A stretch of DNA of 9,281 nt from IMG/VR virus record IMGVR_UViG_3300029219_000180; one strand, 5' to 3'. Source of the DNA: a virus. Taxonomy: Duplodnaviria; Heunggongvirae; Uroviricota; Caudoviricetes. The translations under genes and the position numbers were made by a program. The stretch's first letter is position 1, and every line of letters begins with the position of its first letter. Below, one piece after another: positions 1 through 9,281 of the stretch. The notes beneath the pieces were generated by a model. The model was not told the DNA's origin, did no database searches, and was given only the letters and a program-made list of their open reading frames with translations.

Positions 1-196
1 AGGTATGCCTGAAAGCGTGCGTATTGCCTGAAAACACAACCCGCTACGGGGGAGACTTACCCGAAATCTGATTTATTCAACAAAGCCACCTTTATGCCAT
101 AACTGAAGTTTATGTCTGTTATGAGCGATGAGCGGAAGTTCACTACTTCATGACTAACATTGAAGTGTCCTAAGCAACGGGGAGCAGCTCAAGGAG

Positions 197-222
197 TGTG
201 TTAGTGCAATTACACTAACACA
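197..222. repeat. Perfect inverted repeat: 10-bp stem (tgtgttagtg / cactaacaca) with 6-nt loop
   Basis: Read directly: 197-206 tgtgttagtg, loop caatta 207-212, 213-222 cactaacaca. Lies 37 bp 3' of the stop of the minus-strand 488-aa gene. The flanking A-run is on the plus strand, so it does not look like a classical terminator for the minus-strand gene. Confidence 0.5.
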
Positions 223-258
223 GCTACTAAAAATAAAAATACCAAAACTACAGTTATT

Positions 259-1725
259 CTATGCGCCTGGATTGGGTTCGATCATACTCAGCGTTTTTGC
301 TATTTTCTTAATCTCATCATCATTATCCAAAAAAGAGGCGTCTTTTATTACCACAGTACGCTCTTCTTGTAATAGCTCACCTATTTTTTCTTCTATAAAA
401 TCTAATGTTGGCATTATAATCTGGATGTCTCGAGAAAAAGTAGTTTTTGCATCTTCTATACTGTTGAATCCATTATGTATATGAGTGAATATTCTCTTTT
501 TAAACTGTATGTCTTCTGGATTTCCCACTAACTGACTGAAATCTCCTTTCATAACTCTTTCGCTTGTTTCAAAGAGCTGTATTGCTATCGAGTCGATTAA
601 TTCCTTTTTGGACAGAGATGCTTGTTCATAAAATTTGGTGACTAACTCTGTTGGCAACTTTCTTGAGACGACTTTAATGGACAGTCTCTGAAATAGGTAA
701 GGTGCCACCACGCCCACACTGAAAGGGTGAATCCTCCCTGGATTTAATAATTTTATTGTGACGTTTTCAAAAACTAGCTCATTGATTTTACTATTTATGA
801 ATTCCATTAAATACTTATCTAATGATAATGTTACCGACGCAACCGCTTCTATCACTTGTTTAAATGGCTCGCCTTTCAAGGATTTAAAAAACTCTTTGTT
901 ATAACCAAAGAAATCCACAAAACCTAAATTTATTCGATTTTCTTCTTTAGTATTTGAAATGCGAATTTGAAGTTGTTTTAAGTCTTCATCGGTCAAGTAT
1001 TTTAAACCATAGTCATCAAGCGCGTTACGTATAACTTTATCTGCAGATTCTAAGTCGATTACAGTTTTTACATTAAAAAACAATGATAACAATGAATCAT
1101 ACTTATGAACTCGCAAGGTTAAATCTGTTGCATTTGATGCGGTTACATTTATCCGTCTCAAAAGATCAATAACTTTACTAATTGGTAGGCTGTTTTCAAA
1201 AATTTTGAATGACTCGTATTCAGATACAACATCTTTTATATACTTACTGATAGTATCAGACTTTATTTCCACCTCAACTTCGGTTGAGTAAGAATGAATT
1301 AGTGAGTTTGTAGTTTCAGCGATGTCATTTGATACATACAACTTATATTCGAAACAATCAGGAGCGGGAAGCAAACTATTATCAATAATGGAAAACAATA
1401 AAAATTTAATTATTTCTCTTAATGCTTGCGGTCTAGTTATTCTACCTTGCATTTTTTTACATTGTATTAAACCACTTACAACACCGTTATGGTATAGCAC
1501 GCAGTCGCGTCCTCTTTCAGAAACTCCTTGCATTAAAGATATTGAGGATATATTTTTATGCTTTCCATCTTCAATTTCGTTCTTTACTAACAAATAACAT
1601 AGCAACTCAAATTCTCGATCACCTAATTCTGAAAAGGGAAGCAATCCGATACCAGAATCTATAGTCCATGGTCTATATCCTGATTGAGCCTCGATATTAA
1701 TTTGTTCGTCACTGATTTTTTTCAC
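259..1725 (-). CDS. Hypothetical protein with N-terminal Mrr-cat / PD-(D/E)xK-like (DUF4297-like) nuclease motif and uncharacterised C-terminal ~380 aa; candidate defence effector
   Basis: 488-codon ORF, by far the longest in the AT-rich block (~30% GC in sampled lines). Start codon is GTG (plus-strand cac at 1723-1725) preceded by Shine-Dalgarno AAGGAGA with 5-nt spacing. N-terminal residues 38-108 show the pattern FELLCYLL ... GVSERGRD (D74) ... LIQCKK (Q88, K90) ... RPQALREI, which matches the D...(E/Q)xK arrangement of Mrr-type restriction endonuclease catalytic domains. Family assignment is from motif recognition only. Confidence 0.8.
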   Translation of the reverse strand: MKKISDEQINIEAQSGYRPWTIDSGIGLLPFSELGDREFELLCYLLVKNEIEDGKHKNISSISLMQGVSERGRDCVLYHNGVVSGLIQCKKMQGRITRPQALREIIKFLLFSIIDNSLLPAPDCFEYKLYVSNDIAETTNSLIHSYSTEVEVEIKSDTISKYIKDVVSEYESFKIFENSLPISKVIDLLRRINVTASNATDLTLRVHKYDSLLSLFFNVKTVIDLESADKVIRNALDDYGLKYLTDEDLKQLQIRISNTKEENRINLGFVDFFGYNKEFFKSLKGEPFKQVIEAVASVTLSLDKYLMEFINSKINELVFENVTIKLLNPGRIHPFSVGVVAPYLFQRLSIKVVSRKLPTELVTKFYEQASLSKKELIDSIAIQLFETSERVMKGDFSQLVGNPEDIQFKKRIFTHIHNGFNSIEDAKTTFSRDIQIIMPTLDFIEEKIGELLQEERTVVIKDASFLDNDDEIKKIAKTLSMIEPNPGA

Positions 1726-1730
1726 TTAAA

Positions 1731-1737
1731 TCTCCTT
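1731..1737 (-). promoter_or_regulatory. Shine-Dalgarno (AAGGAGA) for the GTG-initiated 488-aa CDS
   Basis: Plus strand tctcctt at 1731-1737 is AAGGAGA on the minus strand, 5 nt upstream of the GTG at 1725-1723. Confidence 0.6.
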
Positions 1738-2040
1738 CTAATCTTATTGACCTACTCCCTACATTGTAACAGGGGATGATGATAAGGTGTATCTTTCGAG
1801 CTATAAGCACGATAAATAAGTGATTAAAAATGACTCTTTAAACTATTTTAATTTAAAAAATTAATTGTTAGTTCTAATTATGGTATGAGGGCATTTTCGG
1901 CATAGTTCTAACCATATACTTTGGTAAAAATGACTGTTACGGAACAGACCATAGTAATGCCTGCTATTGGCACGGAGCGGGCTGCCTGAGCGCCGTGGGG
2001 TCTGCAAACGGTAAGCATACCGATAACTATACGCTTGGCC

Positions 2041-2460
2041 TTAGTAACTTTTGCTCCCCTCAATAAATCCGCCATCTTTTATCGGACTGCAATGTCCTTC
2101 TTCATCAATCAGTTGCTCGTCTTTCAGGTAGGTATATCGATAGATAATTGAGCCATTATCCATCTCACCATTGGTTCGTTTCATTAGGAGAGTAAAATGT
2201 AACGGGCTGTCCCTATATCGAGCTATTCCATGAATATTGGCAAGTACCTCATATTGACGCTCAGGTGATAACCCTTTAAATACATCGAGATATCCATGGA
2301 ATGTTCCATAGAGTGAAGAAGTGTAGATCAGTCGCTGCTCTGGACCAGTAACTTTAAGAGTAATTTGTTCACCCGTATTACAGGTTAGCTTGGCGGGAAA
2401 TGTCTCAGCCTGAGCAGAAGAAATAGTCAAGCTTAAAATTATCAGGTAGCAATATTTCAT
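2041..2460 (-). CDS. Small secreted/periplasmic hypothetical protein (139 aa) with Sec-type signal peptide
   Basis: The six-frame ORF is 2041-2562, but the internal Met at 2460 starts a canonical signal peptide MKYCYLIILSLTISSAQA|ETF (basic n-region, hydrophobic core, AQA cleavage motif). The upstream 34 codons have no such logic. No strong SD at either start. Function not recognised. Confidence 0.55.
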   Translation of the reverse strand: MKYCYLIILSLTISSAQAETFPAKLTCNTGEQITLKVTGPEQRLIYTSSLYGTFHGYLDVFKGLSPERQYEVLANIHGIARYRDSPLHFTLLMKRTNGEMDNGSIIYRYTYLKDEQLIDEEGHCSPIKDGGFIEGSKSY

Positions 2461-2740
2461 GTGATTAGAATGTCCAAAACTAACATGTATACTCGGGATT
2501 CTATAACTAGTTGGATGTAGACCCAAGATGTATTGGACTATTCTTCGGTTGTAGTTGGTCAAATCATATATTTTATGTCAGCAATGTCTACTTTTGGCAC
2601 ATAGCAGACCAGAGACACTGGCGTAAAGCCATGGAGGATCGGTGGGAGGAGGTAAAAATCCTCTCATGCAAAAAATACGCAAAATCGATAACAGTTGGAA
2701 ATCATTCAATACTCGCACTATCGGAAGTTCACCAGCCAGT

Positions 2741-2778
2741 CGTAGCACGTTCTTGCATATGACGTGGCTACGGGTTTC
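2741..2778. repeat. Copy A of imperfect hairpin-containing direct repeat (cgtagcacg-loop-cgtggctacg-ggtttc)
   Basis: 2751-2778 tcttgcatatgacgtggctacgggtttc aligns with 3775-3800 tcttgcatacgacgtgctacggtttc (25 identical positions, two 1-nt indels, one mismatch). The upstream agcacg is also shared. Internal inverted repeat cgtagcacg / cgtggctacg. Confidence 0.7.
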
Positions 2779-2868
2779 GAGACCGACCCGATCATCAAAC
2801 GAAACATAAAATTAGCTCACATTATGAGGAAAGGTATCTTTTTGCGCTATGTAAATTCAAAGGGTTAG

Positions 2869-3738
<870 letters not shown>

Positions 3739-3761
3739 GTCTTTAAGTGATAAGCATAAAC

Positions 3762-3800
3762 CGCAGCACGATCTTCTTGCATACGACGTGCTACGGTTTC
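3762..3800. repeat. Copy B of the hairpin-containing direct repeat; candidate bidirectional terminator between convergent GIY-YIG and pin genes
   Basis: cgcagcacg-atcttcttgcatacga-cgtgctacg followed by gtttc. Lies between the GIY-YIG stop (3736-3738) and the pin stop (3799-3801), overlapping the latter. Confidence 0.65.
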
Positions 3801-4353
3801 ATTTATCTCCGACCGGAAACTTCTTATACAGTGTCGATATACCAACATCATAGATGATCGCCACCTTCTGGCGAGGAACGCCTGATGCAATTAATCGCCC
3901 GGCCTGCGCCCATTGTTCTGGTGTAAGTTTGGGACGACGTCCACCAATTCGTCCCTGTGCGCGAGCAGCTTCCAGTCCAGCTTTTGTTCGTTCAACAATC
4001 AGTTCTCGTTCCATTTCAGCCAGGGCACCCATGACATGAAAAAAGAAACGGCCCATTGGGGTACTGGTATCAATACTGTCAGTCAGGCTTCGGAAATTCA
4101 CGCCACGCTGGCGCAACTCTTCTATCAGCGTAACAAGATGCCGCATACTGCGCCCTAACCTGTCCAGCTTCCAGACAACCAGAGTGTCACCTGCCGATAA
4201 TGTCCTGAGCAGTTTTTTCAGTCCGGGCCTTTCGGACTTCGTACCGCTTATCTTGTCTTCAAAAATCAGTTCACATCCTACACAGTTCAACGCATTACGT
4301 TGTAGATCGGTGTTCTGGTCATTTGTTGATACGCGTACATAGCCAATAAGCAT
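3799..4353 (-). CDS. pin: Pin/Gin/Hin-family DNA invertase (serine recombinase)
   Basis: Protein from the internal Met ([18 protein letters not shown]...) has the resolvase/invertase N-terminal catalytic motif (YVRVST, catalytic Ser) and a C-terminal HTH ([41 protein letters not shown]). It is near-identical in pattern to E. coli e14 PinE as recalled. The ORF track extends to 4389, but the conserved start is the ATG at 4353. Confidence 0.93.
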
Positions 4354-4379
4354 GGTGGATCTCCCTGACAAAAGCAGGA

Positions 4380-4754
4380 ATGATGCCATTTGCTCGTTAT
4401 TTCTGCATTTTCATAAACGTTGGTTTGGGAGAAGCGGCAAAACGGAATGTGGGAACAGGGGAAAATCAGATACCTGATATGTCATCATATGCATCAGGTT
4501 CAGGCTGGCGAAAAATGCCAGATGGTTCAATTGAACAGTGGGGACGAATTAGTTTTCCTGGTGAACACGGGCCTGTATCCGCCAATGTTTCATTCCCGAT
4601 TCCATTTACACAGACACCGGGCATTGTAATTGTGTGCGATGGTGGTTTCGGGGGCGGGAATATGTGGGGGGCGACCAACTGGAGCACTACCGGCTTCATA
4701 GCTCACTGCAATTATGGTCTTGAAGGTGGTGCGTTTTTCGCTAAGGGCTGGTAA
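4380..4754 (+). CDS. Tail-fibre protein C-terminal variable segment (gene fragment lacking the constant N-terminal part; probably not expressed as annotated)
   Basis: Contains the motif [14 protein letters not shown], typical of phage tail-fibre receptor-binding C-termini (recalled W-x-K-L-P-x-G-x-I-x-Q-W-G pattern), and a Gly-rich tip. The reading frame runs through the gix-like site, as for invertible tail-fibre segments. No upstream constant region in the window. Stop overlaps the next start (TAATG). Confidence 0.55.
4408..4433. other. gix/hix-like 26-bp invertase crossover site
   Basis: TTTTCATAAACGTTGGTTTGGGAGAA matches the recalled Hin/Gin site consensus TTnTCnnAAACCnnGGTTTnnGAnAA at every specified position but one (C to G at position 12). 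Located about 55 bp from the pin start and inside the 5' end of the tail-fibre segment reading frame, as in Mu/P1/e14 invertible segments. Confidence 0.6.
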
Positions 4755-5251
4755 TGATGAAATATCTGTACGTAAACAACCTGGCATATCCTTACGAACT
4801 TCAGTCTCTTTATGTTGAAAAAGGTGAATGGCCTGAAGAAAAAGGTGTTGATATAGACGAAGTAATTTTCAGGGAATATTTCTATGATACACCACCAGAA
4901 GGAAAATACAGATGTGTCGGAGAGGATGGACTGCCTGCATGGGCAGACATCCCCGCGCAACTGAAACGCCTTCTTCCTGACTATAAACGGATGGAAGAAA
5001 AAATAGACGCCGTAATCCGTGAGAAATACGGGTTACCCCCGGTTATGAGCACGCCCGTGAAATATGCCGATCTCATCATGCTGGCAACCGAACGCCGCGA
5101 TCTCGGGCTTGATGATGGCTCTTTCTGGCCTCTACTGGAAGGTATCCCAGCAACAGAGATGTTCAAAGTTATTCCACTGTCGCCAGGCCATGCCTACGGG
5201 ATGTTTATGGAACGTTTTAACGAGTTATCGGAGTTACGCAAATGCGCATGA
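4754..5251 (+). CDS. Hypothetical phage protein (positionally a tail-fibre assembly/chaperone candidate)
   Basis: 165-aa ORF translationally coupled to the tail-fibre segment (TAATG) with an AAGGG SD-like sequence upstream. Sequence does not show the conserved Tfa C-terminus I recall, so the function is by position only. Confidence 0.55.
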   Translation: MMKYLYVNNLAYPYELQSLYVEKGEWPEEKGVDIDEVIFREYFYDTPPEGKYRCVGEDGLPAWADIPAQLKRLLPDYKRMEEKIDAVIREKYGLPPVMSTPVKYADLIMLATERRDLGLDDGSFWPLLEGIPATEMFKVIPLSPGHAYGMFMERFNELSELRKCA

Positions 5252-5604
5252 ATGTTTTCGAAATGGAAGGGTTTCTTCGCGGGAAATGTGTACCGCGAGA
5301 TCTGAAAGTGAATGAAACGGATGCTGAATACCTGGTGCGTAAATTCGATGCGCTTGAAGCTAAATGTGCGGCACTGGAAAACAAAGTAATACCAGTGTCA
5401 ACTGAACTGCCACCAGCAAATGAAAGTGTTTTGTTATTCGATGCTAACGGAGAAGGCTGGCTAATTGGCTGGCGTTCTCTCTGGTACACCTGGGGACAAA
5501 AAGAAACCGGAGACTGGCAGTGGACATTTCAGGTCGGGGACCTTGAAAACGTCAATATCACTCACTGGGCAGTAATGCCAAAAGCACCGGAGGCTGGAGC
5601 ATAA
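5242..5604 (+). CDS. DUF551-like phage protein
   Basis: C-terminal region WYTWGQKETGDWQWTF...ITHWAVMPKAPE resembles the DUF551 signature (Trp-rich, ending ThW-x-P-x-P) found in enterobacterial prophage early regions. GGAG SD 8 nt upstream; overlaps the previous stop. Confidence 0.65.
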   Translation: MRMNVFEMEGFLRGKCVPRDLKVNETDAEYLVRKFDALEAKCAALENKVIPVSTELPPANESVLLFDANGEGWLIGWRSLWYTWGQKETGDWQWTFQVGDLENVNITHWAVMPKAPEAGA

Positions 5605-5909
5605 TGACCACTTTTACCGACAAAGAACTGATTAAAGAAATCAAAGAGCGTATCAGCAGCCTTGACGTGCGAGACGATATTGAGCGCCGTGCTTATGAAA
5701 TCGCACTCCTATCTCTGGAAGTAGAGCCAGATGAACGCGAATCCTATGAATTATTTATGGAAAAACGTTTCGGTGGCTTAGTAGATAGTCGGAGAGCAAA
5801 AAACGGCGATAACGAATACATGGCATGGGATATGACTCTCGGTTGGATCGTCTGGCAACAACGAGCTGGCATTCATTTTTCAACAATATCACAGCAAGAG
5901 GTGAAATAA
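5604..5909 (+). CDS. Hypothetical phage protein (101 aa)
   Basis: ORF with a TGGAG SD-like sequence upstream. Start overlaps the DUF551 stop (TAATG) and its stop overlaps the xis start (TAATG), so it is translationally coupled within the operon. Confidence 0.55.
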   Translation: MTTFTDKELIKEIKERISSLDVRDDIERRAYEIALLSLEVEPDERESYELFMEKRFGGLVDSRRAKNGDNEYMAWDMTLGWIVWQQRAGIHFSTISQQEVK

Positions 5910-6259
5910 TGGAACCATACAGCCTCACGCTAGATGAGGCCTGTCATTTTCTCAAGATATCCAGACCGACTGCCATTAACTGGATACGCACAGGGCGTCT
6001 GCAGGCAACACGCAAAGATCCCACTAAGAATAAATCTCCTTACCTCACAACACGACAAGCCTGCATTGCGGCGCTTCAGTCTCCGCTGCATACTGTCCAG
6101 GTGAGCGCGGGTGATGGCATAACAGAGGAAAGAAAATGTCACTCTTCCGCAGAGGTGAAATATGGTACGCCAGTTTCACATTGCCGAACGGTAAAAGATT
6201 TAAACAGTCTCTTGGAACAAAGGACAAAAGGCAGGCGACAGAACTCCATGACAAGCTAA
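5909..6259 (+). CDS. xis: Excisionase / AlpA-family DNA-binding protein (P22 Xis-like)
   Basis: From the ATG at 5909 (GAGGTGA SD upstream): [31 protein letters not shown]..., an HTH typical of excisionases, located immediately upstream of int. Its 3' end overlaps int by 124 nt in another frame. Confidence 0.75.
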
Positions 6260-7299
6260 AGGCTGAAGCATGGCGGGTCAGCAAACTTGGTGAAATTCCT
6301 GATATAACGTTCGAGGAAGCGTGTGTCAGGTGGCTTGAAGAGAAAGCACATAAAAAATCACTGGACGATGACAAAAGCCGGATCGGATTCTGGCTTCAAC
6401 ATTTCGCAGGAATGCAACTAAGAGACATTACTGAATCAAAAATTTATTCAGCAATGCAGAAAATGACGAACCGGCGTCATGAGGAAAACTGGAAACTCAG
6501 GGCAGAAGCATGCAGAAAAAAAGGGAAACCTGTTCCAGAATACACGCCAAAACCAGCGTCCGTTGCAACGAAGGCTACGCATCTTTCATTTATAAAGGCC
6601 CTGCTAAGAGCCGCAGAGCGTGAATGGAAAATGCTGGATAAGGCACCAATTATTAAAGTGCCTCAACCAAAGAATAAACGGATCCGCTGGCTGGAGCCTC
6701 ATGAAGCACAAAGGCTGATTGATGAATGTCCGGAGCCATTAAAGTCTGTTGTTGAATTTGCACTTGCAACAGGCTTAAGACGCTCGAACATCATCAACCT
6801 TGAATGGCAACAAATAGACATGCAGCGCCGGGTGGCATGGATAAACCCGGAAGAGAGTAAATCAAACCGCGCAATTGGCGTTGCGCTGAATGATACTGCA
6901 TGTCGCGTATTGAAAAAACAAATCGGGAATCATCACCGTTGGGTATTTGTGTATAAGGAAAGCTGTACCAAACCAGACGGAACGAAAGCGCCAACAGTCA
7001 GGAAGATGCGGTATGACGCAAACATAGCCTGGAAAGCGGCGCTGAGACGAGCAGGTATTGATGATTTCAGATTTCACGACTTGAGACACACCTGGGCAAG
7101 TTGGCTGGTTCAAGCCGGAGTCCCGTTATCAGTGTTACAGGAAATGGGAGGCTGGGAGTCTATCGAAATGGTTCGTCGATATGCTCACCTCGCACCTAAT
7201 CACCTTACCGAACACGCACGGCAAATAGACTCGATTCTGAACCCATCGGTCCCAAATTTGTCCCAGTCAAGAAATAAGGAAGGTACTAATGATGTGTAA
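6136..7299 (+). CDS. int: Tyrosine-type phage integrase (P22-like)
   Basis: N-terminus [34 protein letters not shown] is typical of P22-family integrases. Catalytic residues present: [14 protein letters not shown] (Arg), [10 protein letters not shown] (H-x-x-R), MVRRYAHL (Tyr). GAGGAAAG SD upstream. A tRNA-Thr att core follows directly. Confidence 0.93.
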
Positions 7300-7313
7300 C
7301 TTATTGATTTAAA

Positions 7314-7362
7314 TGGTGCCGATAATAGGAGTCGAACCTACGACCTTCGCATTACGAATGCG
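7314..7362 (-). other. Attachment-site core: 3'-terminal 49 nt of tRNA-Thr(CGU) (partial tRNA, not a functional gene)
   Basis: Reverse complement reads CGCATTCGTAATGCGAAGGTCGTAGGTTCGACTCCTATTATCGGCACCA: anticodon loop with CGT, T-arm GGTTCGACTCC and acceptor 3' strand with CCA. The flanking sequence at 7363-7390 does not encode the D-arm or 5' acceptor strand, so the tRNA is incomplete. Confidence 0.8.
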
Positions 7363-7450
7363 TAAATTGATCTTGTAAAATCAATACCTATCGAATTTAA
7401 ATGGATTTTTTGCCACAATATTGCCACAGTTCGTTAGGAATCAGACAGAA

Positions 7451-8524
7451 ATGGCGACTATACGCAAACGTGGTAACTACCAATGGGAAGCTCAAATCCG
7501 TAAACGTGGTTTTCCCTCTCAAACCAAAACCTTTAACACCAAAGTAGAAGCAGAAGCTTGGGCCAAAATGATCGAGTCAGAAATGGCGAGAGGAGTTTGG
7601 CTTAGCCGCAGCGAAGCGGAATCTACGACATTGTATGAAGCCCTAACGCGATATGAAAAAGAGATTGTTCCCGACAAAAAAGGGGCAGTGCAAGACCGAT
7701 CATTGGTGCGGATACTAAAAGGCACTCAGCTGGCGAAAAACTATATGGCCAGCATCAGGAGTGCCGATGTCGCCAAGCTGAGAGATGAATGGTTGAAAAT
7801 CTATGCTCCTGCAACCGTTTTAAGGCGTTTGGCCTTACTTTCTCATGTATTCAATGTTTCGCGGAAAGAATGGGGCATGGAGAGCCTGCTGAACCCCGTA
7901 GAGGCCATTCGCAAACCCCAACCCAAGAACTCCAGGACCAGACGCCTGGAAGCGCTGCCTGTAGTTTCTGAGAAAACCGGTGTTACGTCAGGAAAGCAAA
8001 TAGCCAACGAGATCGAACATATCATCGCCGCAACACATTCATTAGTATTGCCAGCAATCATTCTTCTGGCGTTAGAGACAGCCATGCGCCGTAGCGAAAT
8101 CGCAGAGCTTCGATGGCGCTTTATCGATCTTGATCGGCGAGTTGCACATCTGCCGGATACTAAGAATGGTAATGCCCGCGATGTCCCTTTATCAACGAAA
8201 GCCATTACGATACTGTCCAGTCTCAAGGAACATTCTAAGCCAGCTGCTGATAAGGTTTTTGATATGCGTGCAGACGCGATTACCCGAGCTTTTGACCGAG
8301 CTGTAAAACGAGCCAGAGAACGATACGAGAAAACAAACTCATTATGTGATGAATCTTTCCTTAAAGATTTAAGATTTCATGACCTTCGACATGAAGCAAC
8401 TTCTCGACTTGCTGAAATTTTCCCTATGCATGAACTAACCAAAATTACAGGACATAAAGATCCAAGAATGCTAATGCGGTATTATCATCCAAAAGCTGAA
8501 GATTTGGCGTTAAAGTTGAAATAA
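7451..8524 (+). CDS. Tyrosine-type site-specific recombinase/integrase (second, distinct family)
   Basis: From the ATG at 7451 (the ORF-track M at 7421 is a TTG): MATIRKRGNYQWEAQIRKRG N-terminus typical of island integrases. Catalytic residues present: ETAMRRSEIAELRW (Arg), HDLRHEATSRL (H-x-x-R), RMLMRYYH (Tyr). Unrelated in sequence to the upstream P22-like int. Confidence 0.88.
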   Translation: MATIRKRGNYQWEAQIRKRGFPSQTKTFNTKVEAEAWAKMIESEMARGVWLSRSEAESTTLYEALTRYEKEIVPDKKGAVQDRSLVRILKGTQLAKNYMASIRSADVAKLRDEWLKIYAPATVLRRLALLSHVFNVSRKEWGMESLLNPVEAIRKPQPKNSRTRRLEALPVVSEKTGVTSGKQIANEIEHIIAATHSLVLPAIILLALETAMRRSEIAELRWRFIDLDRRVAHLPDTKNGNARDVPLSTKAITILSSLKEHSKPAADKVFDMRADAITRAFDRAVKRARERYEKTNSLCDESFLKDLRFHDLRHEATSRLAEIFPMHELTKITGHKDPRMLMRYYHPKAEDLALKLK

Positions 8525-8533
8525 GGACGTTGT

Positions 8534-9223
8534 ATGGATTATAAAAATAAGTTAGTTGATGCATCACCAAAATTAAACAACCCTCAACTATTGGCTATAA
8601 TATACTTAATACCTTTTGGATACTTGATTGTAGAAAACCCATTATGGCTAGAAAATATATACATTGCCGCTCCAATTTTCCTATCATCTATAGCTTTATT
8701 AACCAGTGTATACATAGGATATCGTGATTTATTAAATAAAGTATTTAATAATGCAGTAGTTAAATGGGGCGTAACTGGCTTTACATATTCCGTATGCTTA
8801 TGGATCGCAAAGTTTAAGCTTGACATAGCTTATGGTATAGTCCCAGAAAACCTTAATTACTCGACATTAGCTTATGCTTTCATGCTCTCATTTCCAATAG
8901 GGGCAATGATTTGTGCAATTACAGTCTATATATACATATTTTTGCGAGATGTATCCCCAGCAAAAATAGTAATATCCTCTATGATTTCAGTATATATTGG
9001 AAGCTTGGCTCAACATCATATACAGGTGAACAATCTTCCTGAAAAAATAATATTAATAGGACTTATAATTATGGTCCCCTATAACATGGTCAATTTAGCT
9101 AGTTCATTAGTTATTAAAAGGAAATTTAATTTTAATCGTTTAGTATCAGGCTTATCCCTTTTTGCTGTGTCAGTTGCTCTTTTTATTATTAGCATGACAG
9201 CGGTAATGACTCCAACTTATTGA
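8534..9223 (+). CDS. Polytopic inner-membrane protein of unknown function (229 aa), very AT-rich
   Basis: AAGGA SD 6 nt upstream of the ATG, 9 bp after the integrase stop. About five or six hydrophobic helix-length segments (e.g. LLAIIYLIPFGYLIV, IYIAAPIFLSSIALLTSVYIGY, AMICAITVYIYIFL, IILIGLIIMVPY, LSLFAVSVALFIISMTAV). About 23% GC in a sampled line. Confidence 0.7.
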   Translation: MDYKNKLVDASPKLNNPQLLAIIYLIPFGYLIVENPLWLENIYIAAPIFLSSIALLTSVYIGYRDLLNKVFNNAVVKWGVTGFTYSVCLWIAKFKLDIAYGIVPENLNYSTLAYAFMLSFPIGAMICAITVYIYIFLRDVSPAKIVISSMISVYIGSLAQHHIQVNNLPEKIILIGLIIMVPYNMVNLASSLVIKRKFNFNRLVSGLSLFAVSVALFIISMTAVMTPTY

Positions 9224-9281
9224 TAGTGTTTTATGTTCAGATAATGCCCGATGACTTTGTCATGCAGCTCCACCGATTTTG

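What the first reader, a model, noticed from the sequence alone, without database searches (positions are those of the whole stretch)
3799..4754. Degenerate Pin inversion switch: invertase plus a single gix-like site and an orphan tail-fibre tip
Seen in sequence: an intact pin gene, one 26-bp site (4408-4433) matching the Hin/Gin crossover consensus at all but one specified position, and a tail-fibre C-terminal variable segment reading away from pin through that site. I found no second inverted site and no constant tail-fibre N-terminal gene; DUF551 and early-type genes follow instead. Established knowledge: functional G/P/C inversion systems need two inverted sites flanking alternative fibre C-termini. 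Inference: the switch is locked or decayed. The retained, apparently intact invertase could still act in trans on sites elsewhere in the genome.
Basis: partly seen in the sequence, partly recalled or inferred. Interest (0 to 1): 0.5.

Follow-up and report, generated by a model that had tools for sequence, protein, structure and literature searches.

The report
Dead e14-type tail-fibre inversion switch
This is the leftover end of an E. coli e14-family prophage: a 31-kb deletion removed one of the two crossover sites of its tail-fibre inversion switch, leaving an intact Pin invertase, one site and a silent fibre tip, which is an ordinary kind of prophage decay.

Summary
One 26-bp crossover site lies at 4408-4433, and it is the only match in the window down to 5 mismatches. 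A promoterless tail-fibre C-terminal cassette (4434-4754) reads away from pin through that site.

Both flanks of the window are 100% identical to one intact e14-like prophage at thrW in E. coli 0H26. The window differs from it by a single 31,153-bp deletion. The junction (4946/4947) lies at an imperfect microhomology and fuses Tfa residues 1-64 in frame to the C-terminal 101 residues of a YfdR-like HD hydrolase.

In the intact prophage the same site pairs with a second inverted site 1.87 kb away. The closely related isolates 0H26 and 0H24 carry that segment in opposite orientations, so this Pin and this site are active when the system is complete. The site is 26/26 identical to the pin-proximal site of K-12 e14, and Pin is 94% identical to PinE.

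The remnant occurs unchanged in many public assemblies, so it is not an assembly artefact. Action of Pin in trans is plausible, because PinQ/PinR invert the e14 P segment, but it could not be tested here. The finding is ordinary and of low interest.

The parts
3799..4353 (-). pin. An intact 184-aa Hin/Gin/Cin/Pin-type serine DNA invertase. The mechanical ORF runs on to 4389, but the true start is the ATG at 4353.
   Evidence: Resolvase and HTH_7 domains. E 1.9e-93 to Gin 3UJ3, with the VRVSTNDQ serine motif conserved. 173/184 residues identical to K-12 PinE. DNA 100% identical to pinE WP_000905043.1 of the intact 0H26 prophage.
4408..4433 (.). Single surviving 26-bp crossover site, the pin-proximal P/gix-type site. 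The central dinucleotide TT is at 4420-4421.
   Evidence: 1 mismatch to the consensus and unique in the window. Identical to site 8709-8734 of L002, which pairs with the inverted site at 10582-10607. The inversion breakpoints between 0H26 and 0H24 fall inside these sites. 26/26 identical to K-12 e14 L014 5606-5631. Homology of many other E. coli pin loci to the window ends at 4434.
4434..4754 (+). Silent tail-fibre C-terminal cassette, about 107 codons beyond the site. It has no constant N-terminus. It is annotated elsewhere as a 124-aa gp53-like protein starting at the ATG at 4380.
   Evidence: Gp53-like_C match. The last 110 residues are identical to the C-terminus of the expressed 207-aa Stf in the inversion isomer 0H24, where they follow a 101-aa constant N-terminus.
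4754..4947 (+). N-terminal 64-65 codons of the cassette's tail-fibre assembly gene (tfa), truncated by the deletion.
   Evidence: Caudo_TAP match over residues 13-71 only. 100% identical to L002 up to position 9248, inside the 147-aa tfa WP_000978831.1.
4946..4947 (.). Deletion junction. The 2 bp shared by both parents sit within an imperfect microhomology GA(T/C)AT(T/C)CC, which encodes Asp-Ile-Pro in both parent genes.
   Evidence: Three-way alignment of the window, L002 and L003. The deleted interval is 31,153 bp in 0H26.
4948..5251 (+). C-terminal 101 codons (residues 78-178) of a YfdR-like HD-family hydrolase, fused in frame to Tfa. The H69-D70 motif of the parent lies upstream of the junction and is lost.
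   Evidence: 100% identical to L003 from 24792 onward, inside the HD family hydrolase WP_000008356.1.
5242..7299 (+). Distal end of the prophage early-left operon: DUF551 (5242-5604), a YfdT-like gene (5604-5909), an Xis-like HTH gene (5909-6259) and a tyrosine integrase (6181-7299, ORF from 6136).
   Evidence: Pfam matches. Annotations of the 100%-identical and 97.8%-identical relatives.
7314..7362 (-). 3' 49 nt of tRNA-Thr (thrW), the prophage attachment-site copy. A second integrase island (int 7421-8524) follows it in tandem.
   Evidence: The alignment to L001 and L003 ends inside their annotated tRNA-Thr. ARAGORN finds no complete tRNA. A 56-64-bp repeat of this stretch lies at L002 4103/4111-4166.
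2965..3738 (+). Neighbouring cargo gene: PD-T4-3 / CMoRE, a GIY-YIG type IV restriction enzyme. It sits where mcrA sits next to pinE in e14. It is context for the switch, not part of it.
   Evidence: PADLOC PD-T4-3 E 2.7e-140. Pfam LEM-3_GIY-YIG. PMC12923530.

Best explanation
The region is the fossil of a P-type (e14-family) tail-fibre inversion switch.

The parent was a prophage of about 38 kb integrated at thrW. It combined lambdoid regulatory genes with contractile, Mu-like tail genes. At its far end it carried, in order: stf (constant N-terminus plus variable tip A), tfaA, then tfaB and variable tip B on the opposite strand, then pin. One 26-bp crossover site lay inside stf and the other lay next to pin.

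In the complete element, Pin exchanges the 1.9-kb segment between the two inverted sites, so the constant 101-aa Stf N-terminus is joined to tip A or to tip B.

In the lineage sampled here, one illegitimate recombination event deleted 31,153 bp. It occurred at an imperfect 8-bp microhomology. It ran from codon 65 of the silent tfaB to codon 78 of an HD-hydrolase gene in the early-left operon. The deletion removed the distal site, tfaA, the whole expressed stf, and all structural, lysis, replication and immunity genes.

What remains is pin, the pin-proximal site, the promoterless tip B and a Tfa::HD fusion. With only one site there is no partner for synapsis, so the locus cannot invert. The fibre tip cannot be expressed as a fibre.

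Shown: the anatomy, the deletion, the activity of the identical module in intact relatives, and the absence of a second site. Inferred: Pin is still made and could invert P/G/C-type segments of other prophages in the same cell.
For: Window 88-4947 is 100% identical to L002 4389-9248. Window 4946-7362 is 100% identical to L003 24792-27208. Both loci are from E. coli 0H26.

The 0H26 prophage runs uninterrupted from pinE through baseplate, tail, head, lysis and early genes to HD hydrolase, DUF551, YfdT, Xis, Int and thrW.

There are two sites in L002 and one in the window.

0H26 and 0H24 differ by an inversion of L002 8716-10600, while their flanks are 99.99-100% identical.

The Stf of 0H24 is the constant 101 aa plus the window's tip.

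The site is 26/26 identical to that of K-12 e14, and Pin is 94% identical to PinE.

The exact fusion protein is indexed in 67 blocks of public assemblies. Seven of the eight contigs shown are 100% identical to the window over up to 4.4 kb, with pin at 184 aa wherever the contig includes it. The eighth, L011, is 98.6% identical but has the same fusion.

The parental breakpoints show no gix-like sequence.
Against: The source genome was not available. A compatible site elsewhere on the chromosome therefore cannot be excluded.

No read-level or expression data exist for this locus.

No convincing sigma-70 promoter for pin was found. The scan was at chance level, with 3 matches found against 2.4 expected.

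Copies of the remnant are identical, or nearly so in the case of L011. Nothing can therefore be said about whether pin is under selection or simply has not yet decayed.
Confidence: 0.9

Rival explanations
1. Domesticated trans-acting invertase. The remnant is kept because Pin, like PinQ/PinR in K-12, flips P-type segments in other prophages such as e14 to change surface or defence phenotypes. On this reading the lone site might serve only as a Pin-binding operator for autoregulation.
For: PinQ/PinR/PinE all invert the e14 P segment, and this blocks T2 adsorption (PMC12529663). The window's site contains 15 of the 16 bases of the e14 repeat TTGGTTTGGGAGAAGG, and Pin is 94% identical to PinE. 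pin is intact in every contig that carries the remnant and includes the gene. It sits beside a proven defence gene, PD-T4-3/CMoRE. 2,779 of 5,426 complete E. coli genomes hold pin-type modules that could serve as targets.
Against: Seven of the eight remnant copies examined are 100% identical over up to 4.4 kb, so the intact state of pin is fully explained by the deletion being recent. No target segment from the same genome could be examined. Retention may simply be hitch-hiking with the adjacent defence gene.
Confidence: 0.12
2. The switch is still functional because its partner site lies just outside the window.
For: The window is only 9.3 kb and is bounded by IS elements: an IS903B end at 1-87 and an IS1 end from about 9217.
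Against: The left flank is the natural prophage end and the right flank is int plus the thrW fragment. In the intact relative, the only other site in 62 kb lies inside the deleted interval. Longer contigs carrying the same remnant (10.4-12.7 kb) have only the one site. The constant stf N-terminus, which is needed for any output, is gone.
Confidence: 0.03
3. The deletion was made by Pin itself, through site-specific recombination between the crossover site and a pseudo-site.
For: Serine invertases can occasionally use secondary sites (established knowledge).
Against: The crossover site is intact and lies 514 bp from the junction. Neither parental breakpoint resembles a gix site: there is no hit at up to 4 mismatches in L003, and L002 has only the two real sites. 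The junction shows ordinary microhomology.
Confidence: 0.02
4. Assembly chimera: the tfa/HD junction is an artefact that joins the two ends of an intact prophage.
For: Neither the 5,426 complete E. coli genomes nor the GTDB representative genomes contain the junction.
Against: The exact fusion protein is listed in 67 blocks of the collection. The contigs read come from ENA, NCBI and Logan, from different samples and assemblers. The surrounding contexts differ: an IS66 insertion in L006, an IS in L010, and proA directly downstream in L011.
Confidence: 0.01

Closest known systems
e14 P-segment / PinE inversion system of E. coli K-12 (stfP-tfaP / tfaE-stfE / pinE)
   Same: The invertase is orthologous (173/184 residues identical). 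The pin-proximal 26-bp site is identical. The layout is the same, with pin divergent from a silent stf C-terminal cassette followed by tfa. A type IV restriction gene lies on the other side of pin: mcrA in e14, PD-T4-3/CMoRE here.
   Different: e14 keeps both sites and a 1.8-kb segment that still inverts (PMC4272514, PMC12529663). Here the distal site, the constant stf part and one cassette are deleted. The variable cassette differs, because homology to e14 stops at 4434. The prophage sits at thrW rather than icd.
Intact e14-like thrW prophage of E. coli 0H26/0H24 (NZ_CP081782.1 / NZ_CP081774.1)
   Same: 100% nucleotide identity on both sides of the junction, with the same pin, site and cassette.
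   Different: That prophage is complete, has two sites, and is seen in both orientations. The window lacks 31,153 bp of it.
Orphan invertases PinQ (Qin) and PinR (Rac) of K-12
   Same: These are pin-type genes left in decayed prophages next to stf/tfa remnants, with no working invertible segment of their own. This is the same category of remnant.
   Different: The paper reports PinQ/PinR as only 38% identical to PinE. They have been shown experimentally to act in trans, and no such test exists for this copy.
Mu Gin/G segment and P1 Cin/C segment
   Same: The same enzyme family (E 1.9e-93 to Gin). The same 26-bp site consensus. The same logic of swapping tail-fibre C-termini together with their chaperones.
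   Different: Those are complete two-site switches in viable phages. The tail-fibre proteins and segment sizes also differ.

Membership tests
Hin/Gin/Cin/Pin small serine DNA invertases | N-terminal resolvase catalytic domain with the active-site serine (position 9-10), plus a C-terminal HTH DNA-binding domain, in a protein of about 185-195 aa | tested here: met
   PF00239 at E 3.2e-52 and PF02796 at E 5.1e-13. 184 aa. The motif YVRVSTNDQ aligns to Gin residues 1-181.
Hin/Gin/Cin/Pin small serine DNA invertases | Close sequence relationship to a characterised invertase | tested here: met
   173/184 residues identical to K-12 PinE. E 1.9e-93 to Gin 3UJ3.
Hin/Gin/Cin/Pin small serine DNA invertases | Catalyses inversion between two 26-bp sites | tested here: met
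   Indirect evidence. The gene and site, 100% identical in DNA, flank a 1,885-bp segment that is found in both orientations in the closely related isolates 0H26 and 0H24.
Hin/Gin/Cin/Pin small serine DNA invertases | Fis-bound recombinational enhancer inside the 5' part of the invertase gene | tested here: inconclusive
   A degenerate Fis-consensus scan gives candidate sites centred at pin nt 101 and 151. They are 50 bp apart rather than the canonical 48 bp, and each has 1 mismatch. This is not discriminating.
Functional invertible tail-fibre segment (P/G/C type) | Two crossover sites in inverted orientation | tested here: not met
   Only one site in the window down to 5 mismatches, and only one in seven further contigs carrying the remnant.
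Functional invertible tail-fibre segment (P/G/C type) | Constant tail-fibre 5' part reading into one site | tested here: not met
   The 101-aa constant Stf N-terminus of the intact relative lies inside the deleted interval. No such ORF exists in the window.
Functional invertible tail-fibre segment (P/G/C type) | Two alternative stf C-terminus plus tfa cassettes between the sites | tested here: not met
   One stf tip is kept. Its tfa is cut after codon 64-65, and the other cassette is deleted.
Functional invertible tail-fibre segment (P/G/C type) | Invertase gene adjacent to one site | tested here: met
   The pin start at 4353 is 55 bp from the site at 4408-4433.
e14-family prophage (complete) | Structural, lysis, replication and immunity modules present | tested here: not met
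   All of these lie in the 31,153 bp missing relative to 0H26.

The most novel reading that the evidence does not exclude
The remnant is not just debris. On this reading it is a small retained defence islet in which Pin survives as a trans-acting invertase. Pin would flip P-type segments of other resident prophages, as PinQ/PinR do for e14 to block T2 adsorption. It would be co-inherited with the adjacent type IV restriction enzyme PD-T4-3/CMoRE. The lone site would act at most as a Pin operator.
Probability: 0.1. Interest if true: 0.35.

Novelty: already known. Interest (0 to 1): 0.1.

Why it matters
It matters little beyond annotation. It is a clean, fully reconstructed example of how a tail-fibre inversion switch dies: a single microhomology-mediated 31-kb deletion, with the intact parent still circulating at 100% identity.

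It shows that the 124-aa 'gp53-like' protein and the 165-aa 'tail fibre assembly' protein called at such loci are a silent cassette and a chimeric fusion, not real genes.

The only open biological point is whether orphan Pin copies like this one add to trans-inversion of other prophage segments. That phenomenon has already been demonstrated for PinQ/PinR.

Tried and rejected
Second site. I ran the consensus search at up to 3 mismatches, my own scan up to 6 mismatches with shuffles, half-site scans and an inverted-repeat search. None found a partner.

Source genome. An exact search for the junction in GTDB representative genomes found nothing. None of the 5,426 complete E. coli genomes spans the junction.

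Pin-mediated deletion. Rejected because of the position and sequence of the junction.

Assembly artefact. Rejected because of independent contigs.

Selection on pin. Not testable, because the remnant copies are identical.

Promoter for pin. The consensus scan was at chance level.

Fis enhancer. The degenerate consensus scan was not discriminating.

NCBIfam. It gave only sub-threshold matches to other serine recombinases and no specific name for Pin, the fibre tip or the fusion.

tRNA. There is no intact tRNA in the window, only a 49-nt thrW 3' fragment.

Full report
**Observation.**
The window holds an ORF at 3799-4389 on the minus strand. Its real coding region is 3799-4353, giving 184 aa that start [13 protein letters not shown]. 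It has a resolvase catalytic domain (E 3.2e-52) and a resolvase HTH domain (E 5.1e-13). It aligns end to end with the solved Gin invertase 3UJ3 (E 1.9e-93), with the active-site serine motif conserved.

The 26-mer TTTTCATAAACGTTGGTTTGGGAGAA at 4408-4433 has one mismatch to the Hin/Gin consensus. It is the only match in the window at up to 3 mismatches, against 0.01 expected by chance. My own scan found nothing else down to 5 mismatches, and the 6-mismatch hits are at chance level. No inverted repeat in the window involves the site.

ORF 4380-4754 (Gp53-like_C) reads through the site away from pin.

**What follows the fibre tip.**
ORF 4754-5251 matches the tail-fibre-assembly family only over residues 13-71. 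Megablast against 5,426 complete E. coli genomes showed that many genomes match the window up to position 4947 and no further. No genome spans the whole stretch.

**The intact parent.**
E. coli 0H26 (NZ_CP081782.1) matches window 88-4947 at 100% (L002 4389-9248). It also matches window 4946-7362 at 100% (L003 24792-27208).

In 0H26 these two stretches are the two ends of one complete prophage. Its order is PD-T4-3-like GIY-YIG gene, pinE, stf tip, tfa, then tfa and stf on the opposite strand, ymfQ, baseplate, tail, head, terminase, lysis, Q-like and early genes, ymfK, HD hydrolase, DUF551, yfdT-like gene, xis, int, thrW and proA.

The window is this prophage minus 31,153 bp.

**The junction.**
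The junction reads GCAGA|CATCCCC. The parents read GGCAGATATTCC (tfa) and GTCAGGACATCCC (HD hydrolase). This is an imperfect microhomology GA(T/C)AT(T/C)CC, which encodes Asp-Ile-Pro in both genes.

The result is an in-frame fusion of Tfa residues 1-64 to HD-hydrolase residues 78-178. The fusion lacks the parent's H69-D70 motif. Nothing at either breakpoint resembles a crossover site. The deletion is therefore ordinary illegitimate recombination and not a Pin event.

**Is the site real?**
L002 contains exactly two consensus matches. One is the window's site (8709-8734). The other is an inverted partner at 10582-10607, inside the expressed stf gene.

The closely related isolate 0H24 is 99.99-100% identical to 0H26 in the flanks. 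It carries L002 8716-10600 in the opposite orientation, with breakpoints inside the two sites. Several other isolates of the same series also fall into the two match patterns.

In 0H24 the expressed fibre is a 101-aa constant N-terminus followed by 110 residues identical to the window's orphan cassette.

The window's site is also 26/26 identical to the pin-proximal site of the K-12 e14 P segment. Its Pin is 173/184 identical to PinE. Homology to e14 stops at 4434, the inner edge of the site. Many other E. coli pin loci likewise lose homology to the window at 4434.

The site is therefore a genuine, active P-type crossover site whose partner has been deleted.

**Is the remnant real?**
The exact 165-aa fusion protein is indexed in 67 blocks of public assemblies. 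Eight contigs from ENA, NCBI and Logan were read. Seven are 100% identical to the window over up to 4.4 kb, and the eighth (L011) is 98.6% identical with the same fusion. pin is intact at 184 aa wherever the contig includes it. The contexts differ, with IS66 or IS insertions, and with or without the second thrW island. Each contig that reaches the site carries only the one site.

This rules out an assembly chimera. It also shows that the deletion is recent and clonal, so there is no divergence from which to judge selection on pin.

**Mechanism.**
With a single site there is no synaptic partner, so the locus cannot invert. With the constant stf 5' part gone, the cassette has no way of being expressed as a fibre.

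A second, independent decay of the same prophage end exists in strain SRY149, where the homology breaks at window 4348, at the 5' end of pin.

**Trans action.**
It is established that Gin, Cin, Hin and Pin complement one another. A 2025 paper shows that PinQ/PinR, which are orphan invertases of Qin/Rac, and PinE all invert the e14 P segment at the repeat TTGGTTTGGGAGAAGG. That inversion yields a chimeric StfE2 that blocks T2 adsorption (PMC12529663). The window's site contains 15 of those 16 bases.

About half of complete E. coli genomes carry pin-type modules. Trans action is therefore plausible. The host genome was not available, so the idea remains an inference.

**Comparison and novelty.**
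This is a decayed member of the e14/PinE P-inversion family. It belongs to the same category as the orphan pinQ/pinR remnants. The invertase passes the family tests. The locus fails every test for a functional invertible segment except adjacency of the invertase.

Nothing here is new in kind. Interest is low.

Noticed in passing
window 2965-3738 (+): The gene next to pin is PD-T4-3, now named CMoRE. It is a single-gene GIY-YIG type IV restriction enzyme against 5hmC/glucosyl-hmC phage DNA (PADLOC E 2.7e-140; PMC12923530). It occupies the position that mcrA, also a type IV restriction enzyme, holds next to pinE in K-12 e14. This suggests a conserved defence-cargo slot at this end of e14-family prophages.
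   Followed up: partly
window 4754-5251 (+): The deletion produced an in-frame chimeric ORF, Tfa(1-64)::HD hydrolase(78-178). The microhomology at the junction happens to encode Asp-Ile-Pro in both parents. Gene callers report it as a normal 165-aa protein in many assemblies.
   Followed up: yes
window 259-1725 (-) and 2041-2562 (-): A 488-aa protein has no Pfam or NCBIfam family and only sub-threshold PADLOC hits (LmuA, WYL; E about 0.004). A small 173-aa ORF lies nearby. Both sit between the prophage end and PD-T4-3 and may be further uncharacterised cargo or defence genes.
   Followed up: partly
window 7314-7362, 7421-8524 and 8534-9223: A 49-nt 3' fragment of thrW is followed by a second tyrosine integrase and a 229-aa multi-pass membrane protein. 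This is a second island integrated in tandem at thrW. In other genomes PGAP calls an odd 112-nt 'tRNA-Ser' at this junction.
   Followed up: partly
window 1-87 and about 9217-9281: The window is bounded by insertion-sequence ends: IS903B (IS5 family) on the left, inserted at 87/88, and IS1 on the right. This fits a draft or metagenome contig that breaks at repeats. The IS903B insertion is absent from the other contigs that carry the remnant.
   Followed up: yes
L001 (E. coli SRY149) 6100-6971: This is an independent decay of the same prophage end. Homology to the window stops at window 4348, just inside the pin start. The crossover site is lost, and an 'ECs1072 family' gene abuts a pin with an altered N-terminus.
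   Followed up: partly
NZ_CP081745.1 (strain CX15, 18,368-bp extra record): The CX15 assembly holds the pin locus twice. The chromosome matches the window through to 4947, as 0H26 does. A separate 18-kb record shows the shorter match seen in 0H24-type genomes. This suggests both inversion isomers were present in the sequenced culture.
   Followed up: no
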